IMG/VR virus record: IMGVR_UViG_3300028610_002873
Strand: one strand, 5' to 3'
From: a virus
Length of the DNA: 64,000 nucleotides
Made by a program: the position numbers and the translations under genes
The notes under the pieces: model-generated
The model's database searches: none
The model's input: the letters and a program-made list of their open reading frames with translations, nothing else
What the model was told of the DNA's origin: nothing
Shown: positions 3,641 to 56,476 of the stretch, one piece after another
Layout of the letters: each line of letters begins with the position of its first letter
How positions within the stretch are numbered: the first letter of the stretch is position 1

Positions 3641-4141
3641 TCATTCAACCCTCACACTTATATCAATATCAATATCTGGAATATCAGGTATTGGTATTGC
3701 AGGTAAATCAGGCAGATTTGGAAAAGGAATGGCCAAACTTGGTGGAAATGGGATGCTTGGTAATCCTAATGATGGCAAAGTTGGTAAATCAAGATCTGGT
3801 ACATCAAGATCAGATGAAAATTCAGGTAAATCAAGATCAGGTTGATTTGGCGAATCAGGTAAACTAGGAAATGGTATAGTCAAACTAGGTGGAAACGGAA
3901 TAGAAGGTAAACCTAATGATGGTAAACCAGCTATATTAACATCAGGTACATCGAGATCAGATGAAAATTCAGGTAAATCAAGATCAGGTTGATTTGGCAA
4001 ATCAGGTAAACTAGGAAATGGTATAGTTAAACTAGGTGGAAAAGGAATACTAGGTAATTCAAGTATTGGTTGACGAAATTCAAAATTAAAAACTTCATCT
4101 TCATCAATTTTTCCAATTGCTGTTGTTACAAGAGTTGACAC
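3641..4141 (-). CDS. proline-rich tandem-repeat protein, 166 aa (baseplate module)
   Basis: Contains 2.8 copies of a 49-aa unit, LPSIPFPPSLTIPFPSLPDLPNQPDLDLPEFSSDLDVPD... It is contiguous with its neighbours in the gene chain. Confidence 0.6.
   Translation of the reverse strand: MSTLVTTAIGKIDEDEVFNFEFRQPILELPSIPFPPSLTIPFPSLPDLPNQPDLDLPEFSSDLDVPDVNIAGLPSLGLPSIPFPPSLTIPFPSLPDSPNQPDLDLPEFSSDLDVPDLDLPTLPSLGLPSIPFPPSLAIPFPNLPDLPAIPIPDIPDIDIDISVRVE
3644..4057. repeat. 147-bp tandem repeat (about 2.8 copies) inside the proline-rich CDS
   Basis: The DNA segment caggttgatttggc[g/a]aatcaggtaaactaggaaatggtatagt recurs with a 147-bp period. Confidence 0.85.
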
Positions 4142-11519: not shown

Positions 11520-11590
11520 TTTGCATTCCCCCAATTAATAATCTTTTTGATTATTTTGTTTGGAACGTTAATTAATTTTATAAATCGTAC

Positions 11591-11609
11591 TGTTTTACAA
11601 TGTTATACA
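11591..11609. promoter_or_regulatory. TGTTATACA-type dyad (TGTTTTACA a TGTTATACA) upstream of the chaperone/TMP operon
   Basis: Direct dyad in the tube-chaperone intergenic region. It belongs to a recurring motif family. Confidence 0.5.
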
Positions 11610-24341: not shown

Positions 24342-24360
24342 TGTTATACAGTGTTATACA
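24342..24360. promoter_or_regulatory. perfect direct dyad TGTTATACA g TGTTATACA, 20 nt upstream of the capsid ATG
   Basis: Read directly from the sequence; intergenic. Confidence 0.55.
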
Positions 24361-27445: not shown

Positions 27446-27464
27446 TGTTATACATTGTTATACA
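27446..27464. promoter_or_regulatory. perfect direct dyad TGTTATACA t TGTTATACA, 9 nt upstream of the protease ATG
   Basis: Read directly from the sequence. Confidence 0.55.
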
Positions 27465-32594: not shown

Positions 32595-32613
32595 TGTTAT
32601 ACAGTGTTATACA
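32595..32613. promoter_or_regulatory. perfect direct dyad TGTTATACA g TGTTATACA, 3 nt upstream of the terS-candidate ATG
   Basis: Read directly from the sequence. Confidence 0.55.
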
Positions 32614-53115: not shown

Positions 53116-53481
53116 TCAATCTATAATCCGGCCACATCCCCCACACACTTTCAAATCTGGATTACGATAATGTGGAGCCAGTTCTTTATGTTGACAACCA
53201 TTATTAATTTTCTTCAACATCTTCGAATATTCATAGTCTTCAAATTTAAAGTCTGGGACCTTATTAAGTTTCTTTTTTTTATTTAATTGCTCAAACATAT
53301 GCTTTTCACATACCAGTGGTGGTCCAAAACTATTCTGACTATGGGTAAGTAATTCACACTTAGGACAACTGGCAATTTCAGCGGCTACTCTTTTCTCTAA
53401 TTCACCATAATCAAAATGAATATGTTGATTAATTTTTTTCTTACTGAAAAAATTTTTCAACCAATTGGTCAGCTTTTTCAT
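53116..53481 (-). CDS. leader-family protein 1 (N-terminus NWLKNFFSKKKINQHIHFDYGELEKRV), Cys-rich, 121 aa
   Basis: It shares its first ~30 aa and about 100 nt of DNA with 56279..56476. Confidence 0.55.
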   Translation of the reverse strand: MKKLTNWLKNFFSKKKINQHIHFDYGELEKRVAAEIASCPKCELLTHSQNSFGPPLVCEKHMFEQLNKKKKLNKVPDFKFEDYEYSKMLKKINNGCQHKELAPHYRNPDLKVCGGCGRIID

Positions 53482-53922: not shown

Positions 53923-54221
53923 TTTTTCTCTTTATTTTTATTGATAAATTCCCAAACTTCTTTCTTTGGAGCAACAGTCGATAATATTGATGCTGACAAT
54001 GCATTATGAATTTCATGGCTTACATTTTGTTCTTTCAGAAACTTCCACGTTACTTCAGAAAAATACTCTTTAGCATCATCCCAACCTTTTTCGTAATCAG
54101 CCAATAACTTTCGCAATGTTAGATTTGGAACAGCAGTGGACTTCATAACCCCCAATTGCATATCCTTAAACAATTTCCGTTTTTCATCGCCAGTCAAAAT
54201 AATATTTTTATTATCAGTCAT
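53919..54221 (-). CDS. hypothetical protein, 100 aa
   Basis: ORF in the gene chain. Confidence 0.45.
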   Translation of the reverse strand: MTDNKNIILTGDEKRKLFKDMQLGVMKSTAVPNLTLRKLLADYEKGWDDAKEYFSEVTWKFLKEQNVSHEIHNALSASILSTVAPKKEVWEFINKNKEKK

Positions 54222-54441
54222 TTTTTATCTCCTGCGTTTTATAATTTCTTTGGCTTTTTCTAACCGATCCGTTTGTTCTCTTTTCTAAAAACTTCATAAA
54301 ATCTAAAATACGTAGATAATCGTTTAGATCAAATTCTGGAGTAGATTTTTTCCCAATAGGAATGTACTCATTCGCCAGTTTAATCAATCGACTAAATCGT
54401 ATTGATTTGTTTTTAAAACGAATACGAATTTTTTTAGTCAT
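54214..54441 (-). CDS. small basic protein, 75 aa, possible ribbon-helix-helix DNA binder
   Basis: It is the first gene downstream of the repeat array. The N-terminus KKIRIRFKNKSIRFSRLIKLANEY has a strand-helix character. The RHH call is speculative. Confidence 0.4.
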   Translation of the reverse strand: MTKKIRIRFKNKSIRFSRLIKLANEYIPIGKKSTPEFDLNDYLRILDFMKFLEKRTNGSVRKSQRNYKTQEIKND

Positions 54442-54460
54442 CGCGCACCTCTTTTAAATA

Positions 54461-54899
54461 ACTTTACTTTACATTACTTCACAAAACTACACTCTACATT
54501 ACAAAACCTGACAGCACTTTCTTCACTTTACAAAACAGCACAGAACAGCACGCTACTACACTCCACGATACTTCACTTTCTTTACTTTACAAAACAGCAC
54601 AAGACTTCACAGCACACAACGTAACAATACGCTACTTTCTTTACTTCACAATACTCTACGAGACATGACTCAACGATACACTACTCTACTTTCTTTACTT
54701 CACTTTACTGAACCGGACGCTACGATACGAAACATGACGTTACTTTCTTTACTTCACCCCACATCACAAAACAACACATCACTTGACAATACTTTCATTA
54801 CTTTACTTCACAATACTACACACTACTTCACATTATTTCACTTTCATTACTTTACAAAACAGAACCAAACTATACACAACTACACAACACAATAAATTT
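54461..54899. repeat. G-depleted periodic repeat array: about 8 units of 49-59 bp headed by yACTTTCwTyACTTyAC
   Basis: Perfect 17-mers TACTTTCTTTACTTCAC lie at 54633, 54687 and 54741, exactly 54 bp apart. Degenerate heads lie at 54461, 54515, 54574, 54790 and 54839. By my count there are only 26 G in 440 nt on the plus strand. Confidence 0.85.
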
Positions 54900-55517
54900 T
54901 TAACATTTTAAATTCTTTTTCTCCTTCCATCGAATTACTTGAAATTGACCAAAATAACCACCTTTATTAACTCGAAAAGATCCTAATCCTGATCGTCTAC
55001 CAGCATCTTCTAAAATCTGTAATGCAATTTCAGGTTCTAAAATTGAATCGTCTACTTGTACATCAAATTGAATATTCCATTTTTCAAATCTAGGTCTACA
55101 AACTATAACTGCACCAGCTTTATAATTTGTTGCTTTTCTAATATCAACTTCAAATTTCTTAATTGGTTTCTTTTTCTTATCAATTAATGTAGCTGATTCA
55201 CCAATTGGTCTAAATACTCCACCAGCAACTGCTTTGATACTTTTTCTACCAGAATTTTTTTGTTTATAATCAGAAGCAACATGGTTAAACGCGCCTGAAA
55301 CATAACCCAATGGAATACAAAAACTACCATCAGTATTTTTATAAACATGTTTCTCAGCAATTTGTCTTGGTGTTAATTCTTCTTTAATTTTTTTCTTACC
55401 AGACTTAGCACCAAGTAATTTAAACTTGTCTTCATCACTCATCTTATGATGTAAAAGCGGTGTGGTTCCTTCTAAATTTACATTATACATTTTCATTTTC
55501 AATTTCTCCTTTTCCAA
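54900..55517 (-). CDS. hypothetical protein, 205 aa, with C-terminal glycine-rich loop (GLGSFRVNKGGYFGQF)
   Basis: The ORF ends at the first base of the repeat array. I recognise no family with confidence. Confidence 0.5.
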   Translation of the reverse strand: MEKEKLKMKMYNVNLEGTTPLLHHKMSDEDKFKLLGAKSGKKKIKEELTPRQIAEKHVYKNTDGSFCIPLGYVSGAFNHVASDYKQKNSGRKSIKAVAGGVFRPIGESATLIDKKKKPIKKFEVDIRKATNYKAGAVIVCRPRFEKWNIQFDVQVDDSILEPEIALQILEDAGRRSGLGSFRVNKGGYFGQFQVIRWKEKKNLKC

Positions 55518-55779
55518 GTTTTAATTTAAATAATCGTCTGTATACATTATCTAACGCAACCATCGGGTCTTTATTAAATATATTAGCAATGATCAATGCT
55601 AATTCAACCAATTGCCATCTATTATTAATATGAAATTGATTAAACAAGCCATTCTTCCCAGTTGCATCATAAATTTGATTAATTGTTTTCAAACTATACG
55701 GATACTTTTCAAGCAATTTAATACGATAATCAATTTGGGGGGGCTTCTTACTGAAAAATTTTTTCAACCAATTAATCAT
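55483..55779 (-). CDS. leader-family protein 2 (N-terminus MINWLKKFFSKK), 98 aa
   Basis: It carries the shared N-terminal leader. Confidence 0.5.
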   Translation of the reverse strand: MINWLKKFFSKKPPQIDYRIKLLEKYPYSLKTINQIYDATGKNGLFNQFHINNRWQLVELALIIANIFNKDPMVALDNVYRRLFKLKLGKGEIENENV

Positions 55780-56282: not shown

Positions 56283-56476
56283 TTCTTTTCCTGCATCATC
56301 CTTTTTATCAATATCTTTTTTTCTAAATCTATTTGATTAATTATAGCTGAGGCGTCCAAAGTCGGGAGAACTGGCAATTTTATCGCAATTACCCTTTTCT
56401 CTAATTCACCATAATCAAAATGAATATATTGGTCATTAATCTTTTTCTTTCTGAAAATTTTTTTCAACCAATTCAT
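56279..56476 (-). CDS. leader-family protein 3 (MNWLKKIFRKKKINDQYIHFDYGELEKRV), 65 aa
   Basis: I place the start at ATG 56476, which overlaps the stop of the 55-aa ORF (ATGA). The track extends to 56533. Confidence 0.5.
   Translation of the reverse strand: MNWLKKIFRKKKINDQYIHFDYGELEKRVIAIKLPVLPTLDASAIINQIDLEKKILIKRMMQEKK

What the first reader, a model, noticed from the sequence alone, without database searches (positions are those of the whole stretch)
54442..55517. G-depleted 440-bp periodic repeat array between a 205-aa glycine-loop protein gene and a small basic (RHH-like?) gene
The whole 54461-54899 intergenic space is a tandem array of about eight units. Each unit is headed by yACTTTCwTyACTTyAC. 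Three heads are perfect 17-mers (TACTTTCTTTACTTCAC at 54633, 54687 and 54741) spaced exactly 54 bp apart. The flanking units have 59-bp and 49-bp periods. Units fall into subfamilies: three continue ...TTTACAAAACAGCAC and two continue ...CACAATACT. The inter-head segments also share shuffled words (ACGATAC, ACATGAC). The plus strand is almost free of G (26 of 440 nt by my count), so a minus-strand transcript would be almost C-free. No other intergenic region in the window looks like this. The arrangement of a protein gene abutting an iteron-like array, followed by a small basic protein gene, is the classic layout of three things: iteron origins with their initiator, centromere-like par sites with their binding protein, and long autoregulated operator arrays. 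The ~5-turn spacing is unusual for all three. The 205-aa protein has a C-terminal G-rich loop (GLGSFRVNKGGYFGQF) and an N-terminal strand (VNLEGTTPLLHH ... FCIPLGYVSGAF) faintly reminiscent of RAMP-type RNA-binding folds. An RNA-level role, with processing of a repeat-containing transcript, therefore cannot be excluded.
Basis: partly seen in the sequence, partly recalled or inferred. Interest (0 to 1): 0.75.

Follow-up and report, generated by a model that had tools for sequence, protein, structure and literature searches.

The report
Phage VIPR guide-RNA array and protein
The odd G-poor repeat block is the guide-RNA array of a phage VIPR system, a CRISPR-like RNA-guided DNA-silencing module first described in 2026 preprints, and the 205-aa gene next to it encodes its RAMP-type Vipr protein; so this is a new, somewhat unusual member of a known kind.

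Summary
Window 54461-54893 is a nearly perfect five-base lattice, (ACNNN)n on the + strand, which is (NNNGU)n on the gene-sense minus strand. It forms eight in-phase runs of 9-12 pentamers. Each run is separated from the next by a 4-nt phase slip inside a conserved 9-mer, RAWGAAAGU. The slip explains the 49/54/59/64-bp periods.

The adjacent gene (54900-55496, minus strand) matches the solved SUSP1 Vipr protein (PDB 36pp, profile E=2.7e-23). Its predicted structure resembles Cas7/Csm3 RAMPs. A scan of viral contigs for the lattice alone retrieved 120 loci, and 45 of them encode a Vipr homologue. In 10 of 11 close relatives the lattice lies on the vipr sense strand next to vipr. GU and the 9-mer are conserved there, and the triplets between them are completely different.

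This is a VIPR system (bioRxiv 10.64898/2026.04.26.720920 and .720927). It is not an iteron origin, a par site or an operator. The 75-aa gene is not a conserved partner.

The local differences are:
- The constant motif is HGU, not GGY, and the G-loop carries Ser where SUSP1 has Asp177.
- There is no structured 3' tail.
- No conserved accessory gene was found.

No natural target of the eight window guides was found. A related phage's guide matches the window's vipr gene under the published one-base-skip rule.

The parts
54900..55496 (-). vipr gene, 198 aa. It encodes a single-RRM RAMP protein that is predicted to polymerise along the guide RNA, one protomer per pentamer.
   Evidence: A profile of 37 family members matches PDB 36pp_D 'SUSP1 Vipr protein' at E=2.7e-23 over residues 1-192. 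The single sequence gives E=2.3e-6. It belongs to phrog_4652. The AF2 model has pLDDT 82.6, and its top Foldseek PDB hits are Csm3/Cas7 of type III-A and type VII, E about 5e-5, TM about 0.5. The equivalents of SUSP1 H17, R138 and R179 are kept, W178 is Phe, and D177 is Ser. The start at 55496 follows homologue N-termini and a GGAG 9 nt upstream.
54461..54893 (-). vrRNA array. It holds eight tandem guide units of 9-12 pentamers (NN-H-G-U), 81 pentamer positions in all, and is predicted to be co-transcribed with vipr.
   Evidence: Lattice shown. It is on the same strand as vipr and immediately 3' of it, as in 10 of 11 close relatives. The RNA has no more structure than shuffles, z=-0.70. No consensus sigma-70 promoter or terminator lies between vipr and the array.
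54849..54893 (-). Guide unit 1, 9 pentamers. Variable triplets 5'-3': AUU GUU GUA UGU AUA UUG UCU UUU AAA.
54800..54844 (-). Guide unit 2, 9 pentamers, one of them degenerate (GAAAU in place of NNNGU).
54751..54795 (-). Guide unit 3, 9 pentamers.
54697..54746 (-). Guide unit 4, 10 pentamers.
54643..54692 (-). Guide unit 5, 10 pentamers.
54584..54638 (-). Guide unit 6, 11 pentamers.
54525..54579 (-). Guide unit 7, 11 pentamers. Read in coding sense, its NN code spells [KN][DE][IM]GV[SR]ASA[FL][KN], which resembles a helix-turn-helix motif.
   Evidence: The HTH reading is an inference from the exact-match hits, which fell in LysR-type 'EIGVSASAL' motifs.
54461..54520 (-). Guide unit 8, 12 pentamers, the last unit. 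It is followed by UAUUUAAAAGAGGU, which carries the ribosome-binding site of the next gene.
54741..54757 (-). In RNA sense it reads GUGAAGU-AAAG-AAAGU-A. It spans a unit boundary and contains the 9-mer AAAGAAAGU, where two pentamers share one base (a -1 slip of the lattice).
   Evidence: The same punctuation, RAWGAAAGU, is conserved in relatives: L125 (15 copies of GAAGAAAGU), L129 (13 copies) and L121 (AAUGAAAGU).
54214..54441 (-). 75-aa basic protein gene downstream of the array. It is not a demonstrable part of the system.
   Evidence: No Pfam or PHROG family. No homologue in any lattice-bearing or vipr-bearing locus.
55483..55779 (-). 98-aa gene that overlaps the vipr start by 14 nt. By position it is the only candidate for an accessory (vap) gene, but it is not conserved.
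   Evidence: no homologue next to vipr in 10 relatives.

Best explanation
The locus is a VIPR (Viral Interference Programmable Repeat) system of an uncultured contractile-tailed phage.

Proposed mechanism:
1. vipr and the 433-nt array are transcribed together from the minus strand.
2. The RNA is an unstructured chain of pentamers, 5'-N4 N5 x1 G U-3'.
3. Vipr protomers bind one per pentamer. They sequester the constant G-U (positions G2 and Y3 of the canonical GGY) and present the N4N5 dinucleotides.
4. Each in-phase run of 9-12 pentamers is one guide.
5. At each unit boundary the 9-mer AAAGAAAGU shifts the lattice by -1, because two pentamers share one base. I infer that this ends one filament and starts the next, so it would replace the structured 3' tail of the SUSP1-type vrRNA.
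6. Each ribonucleoprotein then recognises double-stranded DNA of a competing mobile element. The NN dinucleotides pair and every third target base is skipped (NNx). In coding regions this puts the skipped base on the wobble position. Binding represses transcription.

What is shown here:
- Protein homology and fold.
- The lattice, its strand and its position next to vipr.
- Conservation of the scaffold together with hypervariability of the triplets.
- One natural guide-target match in this clade that obeys the NNx rule.

What is inferred from the two preprints or from anatomy:
- Transcription of the array and formation of a ribonucleoprotein.
- DNA binding and silencing.
- The stop function of the phase slip.
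For: (1) Protein. The family profile matches PDB 36pp_D 'SUSP1 Vipr protein' at E=2.7e-23 over the full length. The single sequence gives E=2.3e-6. The AF2 model (pLDDT 82.6) matches Csm3/Cas7 RAMPs.

(2) Genetic linkage found without using the protein. An HMM of the family finds a Vipr homologue in 45 of them. Many of the rest are plain pentanucleotide microsatellites.

(3) Geometry. In 10 of 11 close relatives (52-75% identity) the GU-every-5 lattice lies only on the vipr sense strand and directly flanks vipr. None lies on the antisense strand in 8-12 kb of sequence.

(4) Guide-like evolution. GU and the RAWGAAAGU punctuation are conserved. The triplets use 60 of the 64 possible sequences, and no guide is shared between phages. 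Unit number varies from about 2 to 15.

(5) Rule test. The first vrRNA of L126 matches the NVASDYKQK codons of vipr, in frame and with the skipped base on the wobble position. The scores are 21/22 in L125 (same metagenome) and 20/22 in the window (central 18/18). None of 1500 pentamer-order shuffles reached 20.

(6) The published description fits. It reports 9-16 pentamer repeats per vrRNA, alternative consensus motifs including YNNNG, and staggered arrays whose vrRNAs overlap by 1 nt (10.64898/2026.04.26.720920). The structural paper reports one protomer per repeat (10.64898/2026.04.26.720927).

(7) The window's guides have no match in the 64-kb window above the shuffle null. This fits outward targeting.
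Against: - There are no expression data, so transcription and processing of the array are not shown.
- The constant motif is HGU, not GGY. At x1, G is 0.07 in the window and 0.15 in the clade.
- There is no structured tail.
- No conserved accessory gene was found.
- No natural target was found for any of the eight window guides. Exact NNx scans of viral contigs gave 0, 1, 0, 8 and 0 hits, and one metagenome scan gave 28, all about chance level.
- The rule test rests on one guide from a relative. That guide also matches its own vipr at 20/22, so an autoregulatory role is not excluded.
- I could not see the preprint's figures S17 and S18, so the assignment to a VIPR type and to the 'staggered' architecture is by text only.
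Confidence: 0.9

Rival explanations
1. The array is a DNA-level element, that is an iteron origin, a partition centromere or an operator array. Its repeats would be bound as double-stranded DNA by the 205-aa protein or the 75-aa protein.
For: The layout is a tandem array between two genes. The 75-aa protein is small and basic, with a strand-helix-helix-like N-terminus by eye. The head 17-mers sit at exact 54-bp spacing.
Against: Only 2 of every 5 bases are fixed, and the remainder is hypervariable between relatives. The lattice is strictly strand-specific and co-oriented with vipr in all 10 lattice-bearing relatives. There are no inverted repeats. Cumulative GC skew does not turn here. The 75-aa gene is absent from every related locus. 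The 205-aa protein is an RNA-binding RAMP.
Confidence: 0.02
2. It is a VIPR system used mainly on the phage's own genome. The guides would regulate the phage's own genes over time, including autoregulation of vipr, rather than attack competitors.
For: The L126 guide matches its own vipr at 20/22, above the preprint's 80% threshold. The locus sits among small early-type genes.
Against: The eight window guides have no match in the 64-kb window above shuffled guides; the best fraction is 0.68-0.86, which equals the null. The preprint found no self-targets for its guides. The two mismatches of the L126 guide against its own gene fall in one central dinucleotide (Ser AGC versus UC), which looks like self-avoidance. 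Only part of the genome is in the window, so this is not excluded.
Confidence: 0.06
3. The array is a decoy or sponge RNA, or a degenerate remnant. It would titrate a rival phage's Vipr, or be a decaying array with no guide function.
For: The motif departs from GGY. There is no structured tail. One pentamer in unit 2 is degenerate. No targets were found.
Against: The lattice is almost flawless over 81 pentamers. It sits beside an intact vipr whose RNA-contact residues are conserved across the clade: H15, R132 and R173 are invariant, and S171 and F172 are at least 90% conserved. The same HGU motif and punctuation are kept in relatives at 52-75% protein identity, which indicates purifying selection on a matched protein-RNA pair.
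Confidence: 0.02

Closest known systems
VIPR systems (Vipr protein plus vrRNA), exemplified by Escherichia phage SUSP1 type II; bioRxiv 10.64898/2026.04.26.720920 and 10.64898/2026.04.26.720927; PDB 36pp
   Same: - A protein of about 200 aa with a single-RRM RAMP fold, a G-loop and a thumb.
- Phage-encoded.
- Tandem pentanucleotide repeats in the intergenic space next to vipr, on the same strand, with 9-12 repeats per unit.
- A constant G-pyrimidine with hypervariable remaining positions.
- In this clade, one natural target match obeys the 1-nt skip rule with the skipped base on the wobble position.
   Different: - The constant part is HGU, not GGY. Position G1 is U-biased and G-depleted.
- The G-loop residue that reads G1 in SUSP1 (D177) is Ser.
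- There is no roughly 40-nt structured tail or pseudoknot. Units abut through a 9-nt AAAGAAAGU junction with a -1 slip.
- There are eight units in one uninterrupted block, against 1+3 in SUSP1.
- No conserved vap gene was found.
- Protein identity to SUSP1 Vipr is low; the single-sequence E-value is only 2e-6.
VIPR variants named in the first preprint: alternative consensus 'YNNNG', and 'staggered arrays' whose vrRNAs overlap by 1 nt (Methods and legend of fig. S18)
   Same: (NNNGU)n is YNNNG in the preprint's register. The 9-mer AAAGAAAGU can be read as two pentamers, AAAGA and AAAGU, that share one base. [quoted passage not shown]
   Different: I could not see the figures or data files, so I do not know whether this clade, its HGU bias or its junction sequence is among the examples shown, nor which of types I-VII it belongs to.
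Class 1 CRISPR-Cas backbone proteins (Cas7: Csm3, Cmr4, type VII Cas7) with crRNA
   Same: The RAMP fold is shared; the best structural matches are Csm3/Cas7 at E about 5e-5. In both, a protein filament lies along a guide RNA with periodic base flipping.
   Different: - The period is 5 nt, not 6.
- The guide is non-contiguous.
- There are no CRISPR repeats or spacers.
- No other CRISPR-type RAMP or second vipr was found in the window; cas1, cas2 and other cas genes were not specifically searched for.
- There is only one protein.
Type III toxin-antitoxin arrays (ToxIN: tandem 36-nt RNA repeats processed by the adjacent endoribonuclease). Comparison from general knowledge.
   Same: A tandem non-coding RNA repeat array sits next to a gene of about 170-200 aa for the protein that binds it. 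These systems are often carried by or exploited by phages.
   Different: In ToxIN the array precedes the protein gene with a terminator between them, the repeats are near-identical in sequence, and the protein is a ToxN-fold nuclease. Here the array follows the gene, the units differ at most positions, and the protein is a RAMP.

Membership tests
VIPR system | Vipr protein: homologue of the SUSP1 Vipr RAMP (RRM core, G-loop, thumb) | tested here: met
   Profile against PDB 36pp_D: E=2.7e-23, residues 1-192. Single sequence: E=2.3e-6. AF2 model plus Foldseek: Csm3/Cas7.
VIPR system | Residues that hold the constant trinucleotide (SUSP1 H17, R138, D177, W178, R179) | tested here: inconclusive
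   The window has H, R, S, F, R at these positions. Four of five are kept or conservatively replaced. D177, which reads G1, is Ser, in step with loss of G at that RNA position. Across lattice-bearing loci, 10 of 13 with Asp or Glu there have G at 0.72 or more at x1. The Ser clade has G at 0.06-0.43, and at 0.22 or less in the loci with at least 19 pentamers. The loci are phylogenetically non-independent.
VIPR system | vrRNA: tandem pentanucleotide repeats with constant and hypervariable positions, 9-16 repeats per guide | tested here: met
   Eight in-phase runs of 9-12 pentamers; GU is fixed and the other three positions vary. The motif is HGU/NN (YNNNG register), not canonical GGY/NN.
VIPR system | Array lies in the intergenic space flanking vipr and on its strand | tested here: met
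   In the window the array starts 7 nt after the vipr stop. The same holds in 10 of 11 close relatives.
VIPR system | Scaffold conserved while guide positions are hypervariable among related systems | tested here: met
   Shown for L121, L123, L125, L126, L127 and L129 against the window.
VIPR system | Target recognition by NN pairing with one skipped base (xNN), skip on the codon wobble position | tested here: inconclusive
   Met for one guide of a relative (L126 against vipr genes: 21/22 and 20/22, in frame, 0 of 1500 shuffles reach 20). No significant target was found for the window's own guides.
VIPR system | Invariant structured 3' tail (a pseudoknot in type II) | tested here: not met
   Units abut with only a 9-nt junction, and the whole array folds no better than shuffles (z=-0.70). 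The preprint describes other architectures (staggered arrays, ribozyme-interspersed arrays, single vrRNAs), so this feature defines type II, not VIPR as a whole.
VIPR system | Accessory vap gene next to vipr | tested here: not met
   No neighbour is conserved among the window and 10 relatives. p98 and p75 have no family hits. The preprint says loci 'typically' include a vap gene.
VIPR system | vrRNA is expressed, co-purifies with Vipr, and the RNP binds and silences DNA | not testable with these tools
   Needs small-RNA sequencing, pull-down and reporter assays.
CRISPR-Cas | Identical direct repeats of 25-40 nt separated by unique spacers; cas1/cas2 or several cas genes | tested here: not met
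   No such repeats were found. The only RAMP in the window is vipr. No Rfam family matched.
Iteron origin or partition site | Sequence-conserved repeats of 11-22 bp bound by a cognate Rep or Par protein encoded alongside; the partner gene is conserved with the site | tested here: not met
   Only GU and a 9-mer are conserved. The 75-aa gene is not conserved with the array. GC skew does not turn at the locus.

The most novel reading that the evidence does not exclude
This clade may be a distinct VIPR subtype in two respects.

(a) Recognition of the first guanine has been given up. The G-loop has Ser where SUSP1 has Asp177, and the RNA motif is HGU instead of GGY.

(b) Guides are delimited by a -1 slip of the pentamer lattice ('G without U', AAAG|AAAGU) instead of a folded tail. 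One long unstructured transcript could then partition itself into separate Vipr filaments without a dedicated processing structure.

In addition, phages of this clade appear to aim guides at the most conserved codons of each other's vipr genes. They may protect their own copy with the one kind of synonymous change that wobble-skipping cannot cover, a switch between the serine codon families TCN and AGY.
Probability: 0.3. Interest if true: 0.6.

Novelty: new member of a known kind. Interest (0 to 1): 0.5.

Why it matters
VIPR was described only in two 2026 preprints, as an RNA-guided DNA-recognition system that its authors propose pre-dates CRISPR. This window adds an eight-guide example from a phage with no cultured relative; its large terminase is at most 28% identical to any deposited phage.

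The locus also gives three testable leads:
- A G-loop Asp-to-Ser change that tracks loss of the first constant guanine. This could help engineer or predict repeat codes.
- A lattice phase slip as a minimal guide delimiter.
- A natural anti-vipr guide with an apparent synonymous-codon self-immunity.

The lattice alone, (ACNNN)n, retrieved Vipr loci directly from raw DNA. This gives a simple annotation rule for such arrays.

Tried and rejected
- Pfam on the 205-aa protein and six neighbours gave nothing. Pfam on all 37 family members gave only noise.
- Rfam on the whole window at gathering thresholds gave nothing. No tRNA or tmRNA was found.
- Megablast of 52-58 kb against deposited phages gave no match. 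tblastn of Vipr against deposited phages hit only Listonella phage phiHSIC ORF22, at 26% identity.
- The search for related loci with the broad alignment failed because no stretch was conserved enough. With the close alignment it returned only four IMG/VR loci.
- Skip rules other than NNx (2+0, 2+2, 3+0, 3+1) gave no guide-target match above shuffles in 2.5 Mb of held sequence. The period-5 rules only re-found the arrays themselves.
- Searches for targets of the window's own guides:
  - Units 7, 6 and 5 had no exact 18-nt NNx match in viral contigs.
  - Unit 4 had one match, L135, in frame in an ORF of at least 819 aa. One match is what chance predicts, and the window has no homologue of that ORF.
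  - Unit 8 had eight matches. Six are one Photorhabdus-type prophage tail-fibre gene at 21-22/24. I estimate this at about p=0.04 before correcting for the guides tried. The host GC content does not fit, so I do not claim it.
  - Unit 7 in metagenomes had 28 matches, mostly LysR-type HTH motifs in GC-rich bacteria, which is chance.
- The sigma-70 promoter and intrinsic-terminator scan was no better than shuffles.
- I considered TRAP-like ring proteins, Rho rut sites, SSAP rings, RHH heptad arrays and ToxIN before the PDB hit. All were dropped once the Vipr homology and the lattice-protein linkage were found.
Full report
**1. What is in the sequence**

The region 54461-54899 is intergenic. It lies between two minus-strand genes, one of 205 aa (55517..54900) and one of 75 aa (54441..54214).
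- Three perfect 17-mers at 54633, 54687 and 54741.
- 26 G in 439 nt.
- Eight units.

The deeper regularity is a five-base lattice. Splitting the + strand before every AC gives ACNNN almost without exception, and 61 of 91 AC-to-AC gaps equal 5. There are eight in-phase runs of 12, 11, 11, 10, 10, 9, 7(+2) and 9 pentamers. Consecutive runs are separated by a 4-nt slip, so the unit lengths are 5n+4, namely 64, 59, 59, 54, 54, 49 and 49 bp.

Nothing comparable exists elsewhere in the 64 kb for any dinucleotide. A 12-pentamer pattern never occurs in shuffles.

On the gene-sense strand the RNA reads (N N N G U)n. Units are joined by AAAG|AAAGU, AAUG|AAAGU or GAAG|AAAGU.

**2. The protein and the linkage**

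Pfam is silent on the 205-aa protein. PHROGs places it in phrog_4652, of unknown function. It has 185 relatives in the metagenomic protein collection, all unnamed.

I then asked whether the lattice occurs elsewhere, without using the protein. About half are plain microsatellites. The rest have 7-22 distinct pentamers.
- tblastn with the window protein hits 26 of the 120 loci.
- An HMM of the family hits 45 of them.

The lattice and the protein family are therefore genetically linked across phages that share only 22-34% protein identity.

A profile of 37 members matches one solved structure over its whole length: PDB 36pp chain D, 'SUSP1 Vipr protein', E=2.7e-23. The window protein alone gives E=2.3e-6. 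An AlphaFold2 model (pLDDT 82.6) finds Csm3/Cas7 backbone subunits of type III-A and type VII CRISPR complexes as its best PDB matches, with E about 5e-5 and TM about 0.5.

**3. What is known**

Two preprints describe VIPR systems: 10.64898/2026.04.26.720920 and 10.64898/2026.04.26.720927. Their main points are:
- Vipr is a phage-encoded protein of about 20 kDa with a single-RRM RAMP fold.
- vrRNAs are made of 9-16 pentamers, GGY/NN.
- One Vipr protomer binds each repeat. It hides GGY and presents NN.
- NN pairs with double-stranded DNA, and every third target base is skipped. In coding sequence the skipped base usually falls on the wobble position.
- Natural targets are rival phages, satellites, prophages and other VIPR systems.
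- There are seven types.
- Alternative repeat consensus motifs are NNNGG, YNNNG and NNNNG.
- Architectures include type II arrays with a pseudoknotted tail, 'staggered arrays' whose vrRNAs overlap by one nucleotide, ribozyme-interspersed arrays and single vrRNAs.

The window's (NNNGU)n is YNNNG in their register. Its AAAGAAAGU junction can be read as AAAGA and AAAGU sharing one base, which matches the wording for staggered arrays. I could not see the figures.

**4. Tests of membership made here**

- Geometry. In 10 of 11 close relatives fetched by protein identity (52-75%), the GU lattice lies only on the vipr sense strand and directly flanks vipr. None lies on the antisense strand.
- Evolution. 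GU and the RAWGAAAGU junction are kept: L125 has 15 copies of GAAGAAAGU, L129 has 13, and L121 uses AAUGAAAGU. The triplets use 60 of 64 possibilities and no guide is shared between phages. Unit number ranges from about 2 to 15.
- Structure. The array RNA folds no better than shuffles, z=-0.70. It has no inverted repeats.
- Self-targets. There are none in the window above the shuffle null.
- Accessory gene. No neighbour is conserved. The 75-aa gene is therefore not part of a conserved module. The 98-aa gene that overlaps the vipr start is a candidate by position only.

**5. How this clade differs**

Position x1, just 5' of GU, is G in canonical VIPR. Here it is U-biased and G-poor. In the window U is 0.55 and G is 0.07. 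In the clade U is 0.45 and G is 0.15.

In the SUSP1 structure G1 is read by H17 and D177, G2 by R138 and W178, and Y3 by R179. The window has H, R, S, F, R at these positions.

Across the lattice-bearing loci:
- 10 of 13 with Asp or Glu at the D177 position have G at 0.72 or more at x1.
- The Ser clade, L088 and L027 (Ser), L028 (Ile), L010 (Ala) and L089 (Thr) mostly do not have a conserved G there; G is 0.22 or less where at least 19 pentamers were counted.
- The exceptions are L071, L072 and L083. In L072 and L083 W178 is also changed.
- L036 and L109 have Arg at this position and G at 1.0.

This is a correlation among related sequences, not proof. It does point to a simple protein-RNA co-variation.

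**6. The targeting rule in this clade**

I took 48 guides from seven arrays and scanned 2.5 Mb of held sequence under seven pairing/skip rules, with pentamer-order shuffles as the null.

The only outlier used the published rule (two paired bases, one skipped). The first vrRNA of L126 matches L125 at 21/22. The match lies inside L125's vipr gene, on the codons of the invariant motif NVASDYKQK. It is in frame, with every skipped base on the wobble position. L125 and L126 come from the same metagenome.

The same guide also matches:
- the window's vipr at 20/22, with the central 18 of 18 matching;
- its own vipr at 20/22, where both mismatches lie in one central serine codon (AGC against guide UC).

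None of 1500 shuffles reached 20. My extrapolated estimate of significance, after correcting for all guide-rule tests, is about 0.03.

x1 matches the skipped base only 3-5 times in 11, so x1 seems not to pair. This supports NNx for the HGU clade. It also shows phages of this clade aiming at each other's vipr genes, which the preprint reports for other clades.

**7. Targets of the window's guides**

None was established. Details are under 'tried and rejected'.

**8. Verdict**

The finding is real and is a VIPR locus. Because VIPR is already described, including YNNNG repeats and 1-nt-overlap arrays, I rate this a new member of a known kind. It has variant features worth a specialist's look.

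Noticed in passing
L126:6614-6668 (guide); L125:4024-4056; window 55225-55257 (approximate, minus strand, codons NHVASDYKQKN of vipr); L126:6205-6237: The first vrRNA of a related phage (IMGVR_UViG_3300022707_004719) matches the most conserved codons of vipr genes under the NNx rule. It scores 21/22 in a co-occurring phage and 20/22 in this window's vipr. Against its own vipr both mismatches fall in one Ser codon (AGC against guide UC). A switch between the TCN and AGY serine codon families is a synonymous change that wobble-skipping cannot cover, so it may give self-immunity. Alternatively the guide autoregulates vipr.
   Followed up: partly
window 53386-53457 and 56390-56461: Two 72-nt direct repeats (78% identical), 3004 bp apart, bracket the whole VIPR segment (p84' to p168, p98, vipr, array, p75, p100, p68, p63). 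They are the 5' ends of paralogous small genes whose products share the N-terminus NWLKK.F..KKKIN.Q.IHFDYGELEKRV. p98 and p207 start with a similar motif. The only other public contig with this vipr (L134, Logan SRR5210996, 100% identical) ends inside both repeats. This may be a recombination cassette or just an assembly break.
   Followed up: partly
window 11591-11609, 24342-24360, 27446-27464, 32595-32613: The doubled 9-mer TGTTATACANTGTTATACA occurs four times (none of 100 shuffles had four). At least three copies lie just upstream, on the minus strand, of structural-gene starts at 11534, 24321 and 27436; the fourth (32595) was not checked against a gene start. It is probably a late promoter or regulator site of this phage.
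   Followed up: partly
L020, L062, L101, L114, L118 (GAC+NN); L046, L100 (CAC+NN); L016, L053 (ACA+NN); L037 (AAC+NN): Other Vipr clades retrieved by the lattice scan carry, on the vipr sense strand, pentamer lattices whose constant trinucleotide is GAC, CAC, ACA or AAC rather than GGY. If they are transcribed antisense the motifs are GUC, GUG, UGU and GUU. In these clades the thumb Arg (SUSP1 R138) is replaced by Phe or Leu, and D177 by various residues. I could not tell whether these are among the preprint's 'related consensus' types.
   Followed up: partly
window 3705-4057: A 147-nt tandem repeat, 2.4 copies at 84% identity. TRF found it in the tail-gene part of the window, near the 935-aa baseplate-wedge-like ORF. 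It may be a repeated domain in a fibre protein.
   Followed up: no
L123:4900-5350: In one relative the short vrRNA array is followed by a terminator-like hairpin and a GC-rich stretch of about 400 nt that looks structured and has no called gene. It could be another non-coding RNA or a mobile element.
   Followed up: no
L142:3251-9165 and Photorhabdus loci L144-L158: The best near-match of window guide unit 8 (22/24) lies at the junction between the conserved N-terminal part and the variable C-terminal part of one of several stacked tail-fibre and tail-fibre-assembly cassettes of a Photorhabdus prophage or tailocin. It is statistically marginal, and the GC content (window 0.32, Photorhabdus about 0.42 from general knowledge) argues against a shared host.
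   Followed up: partly
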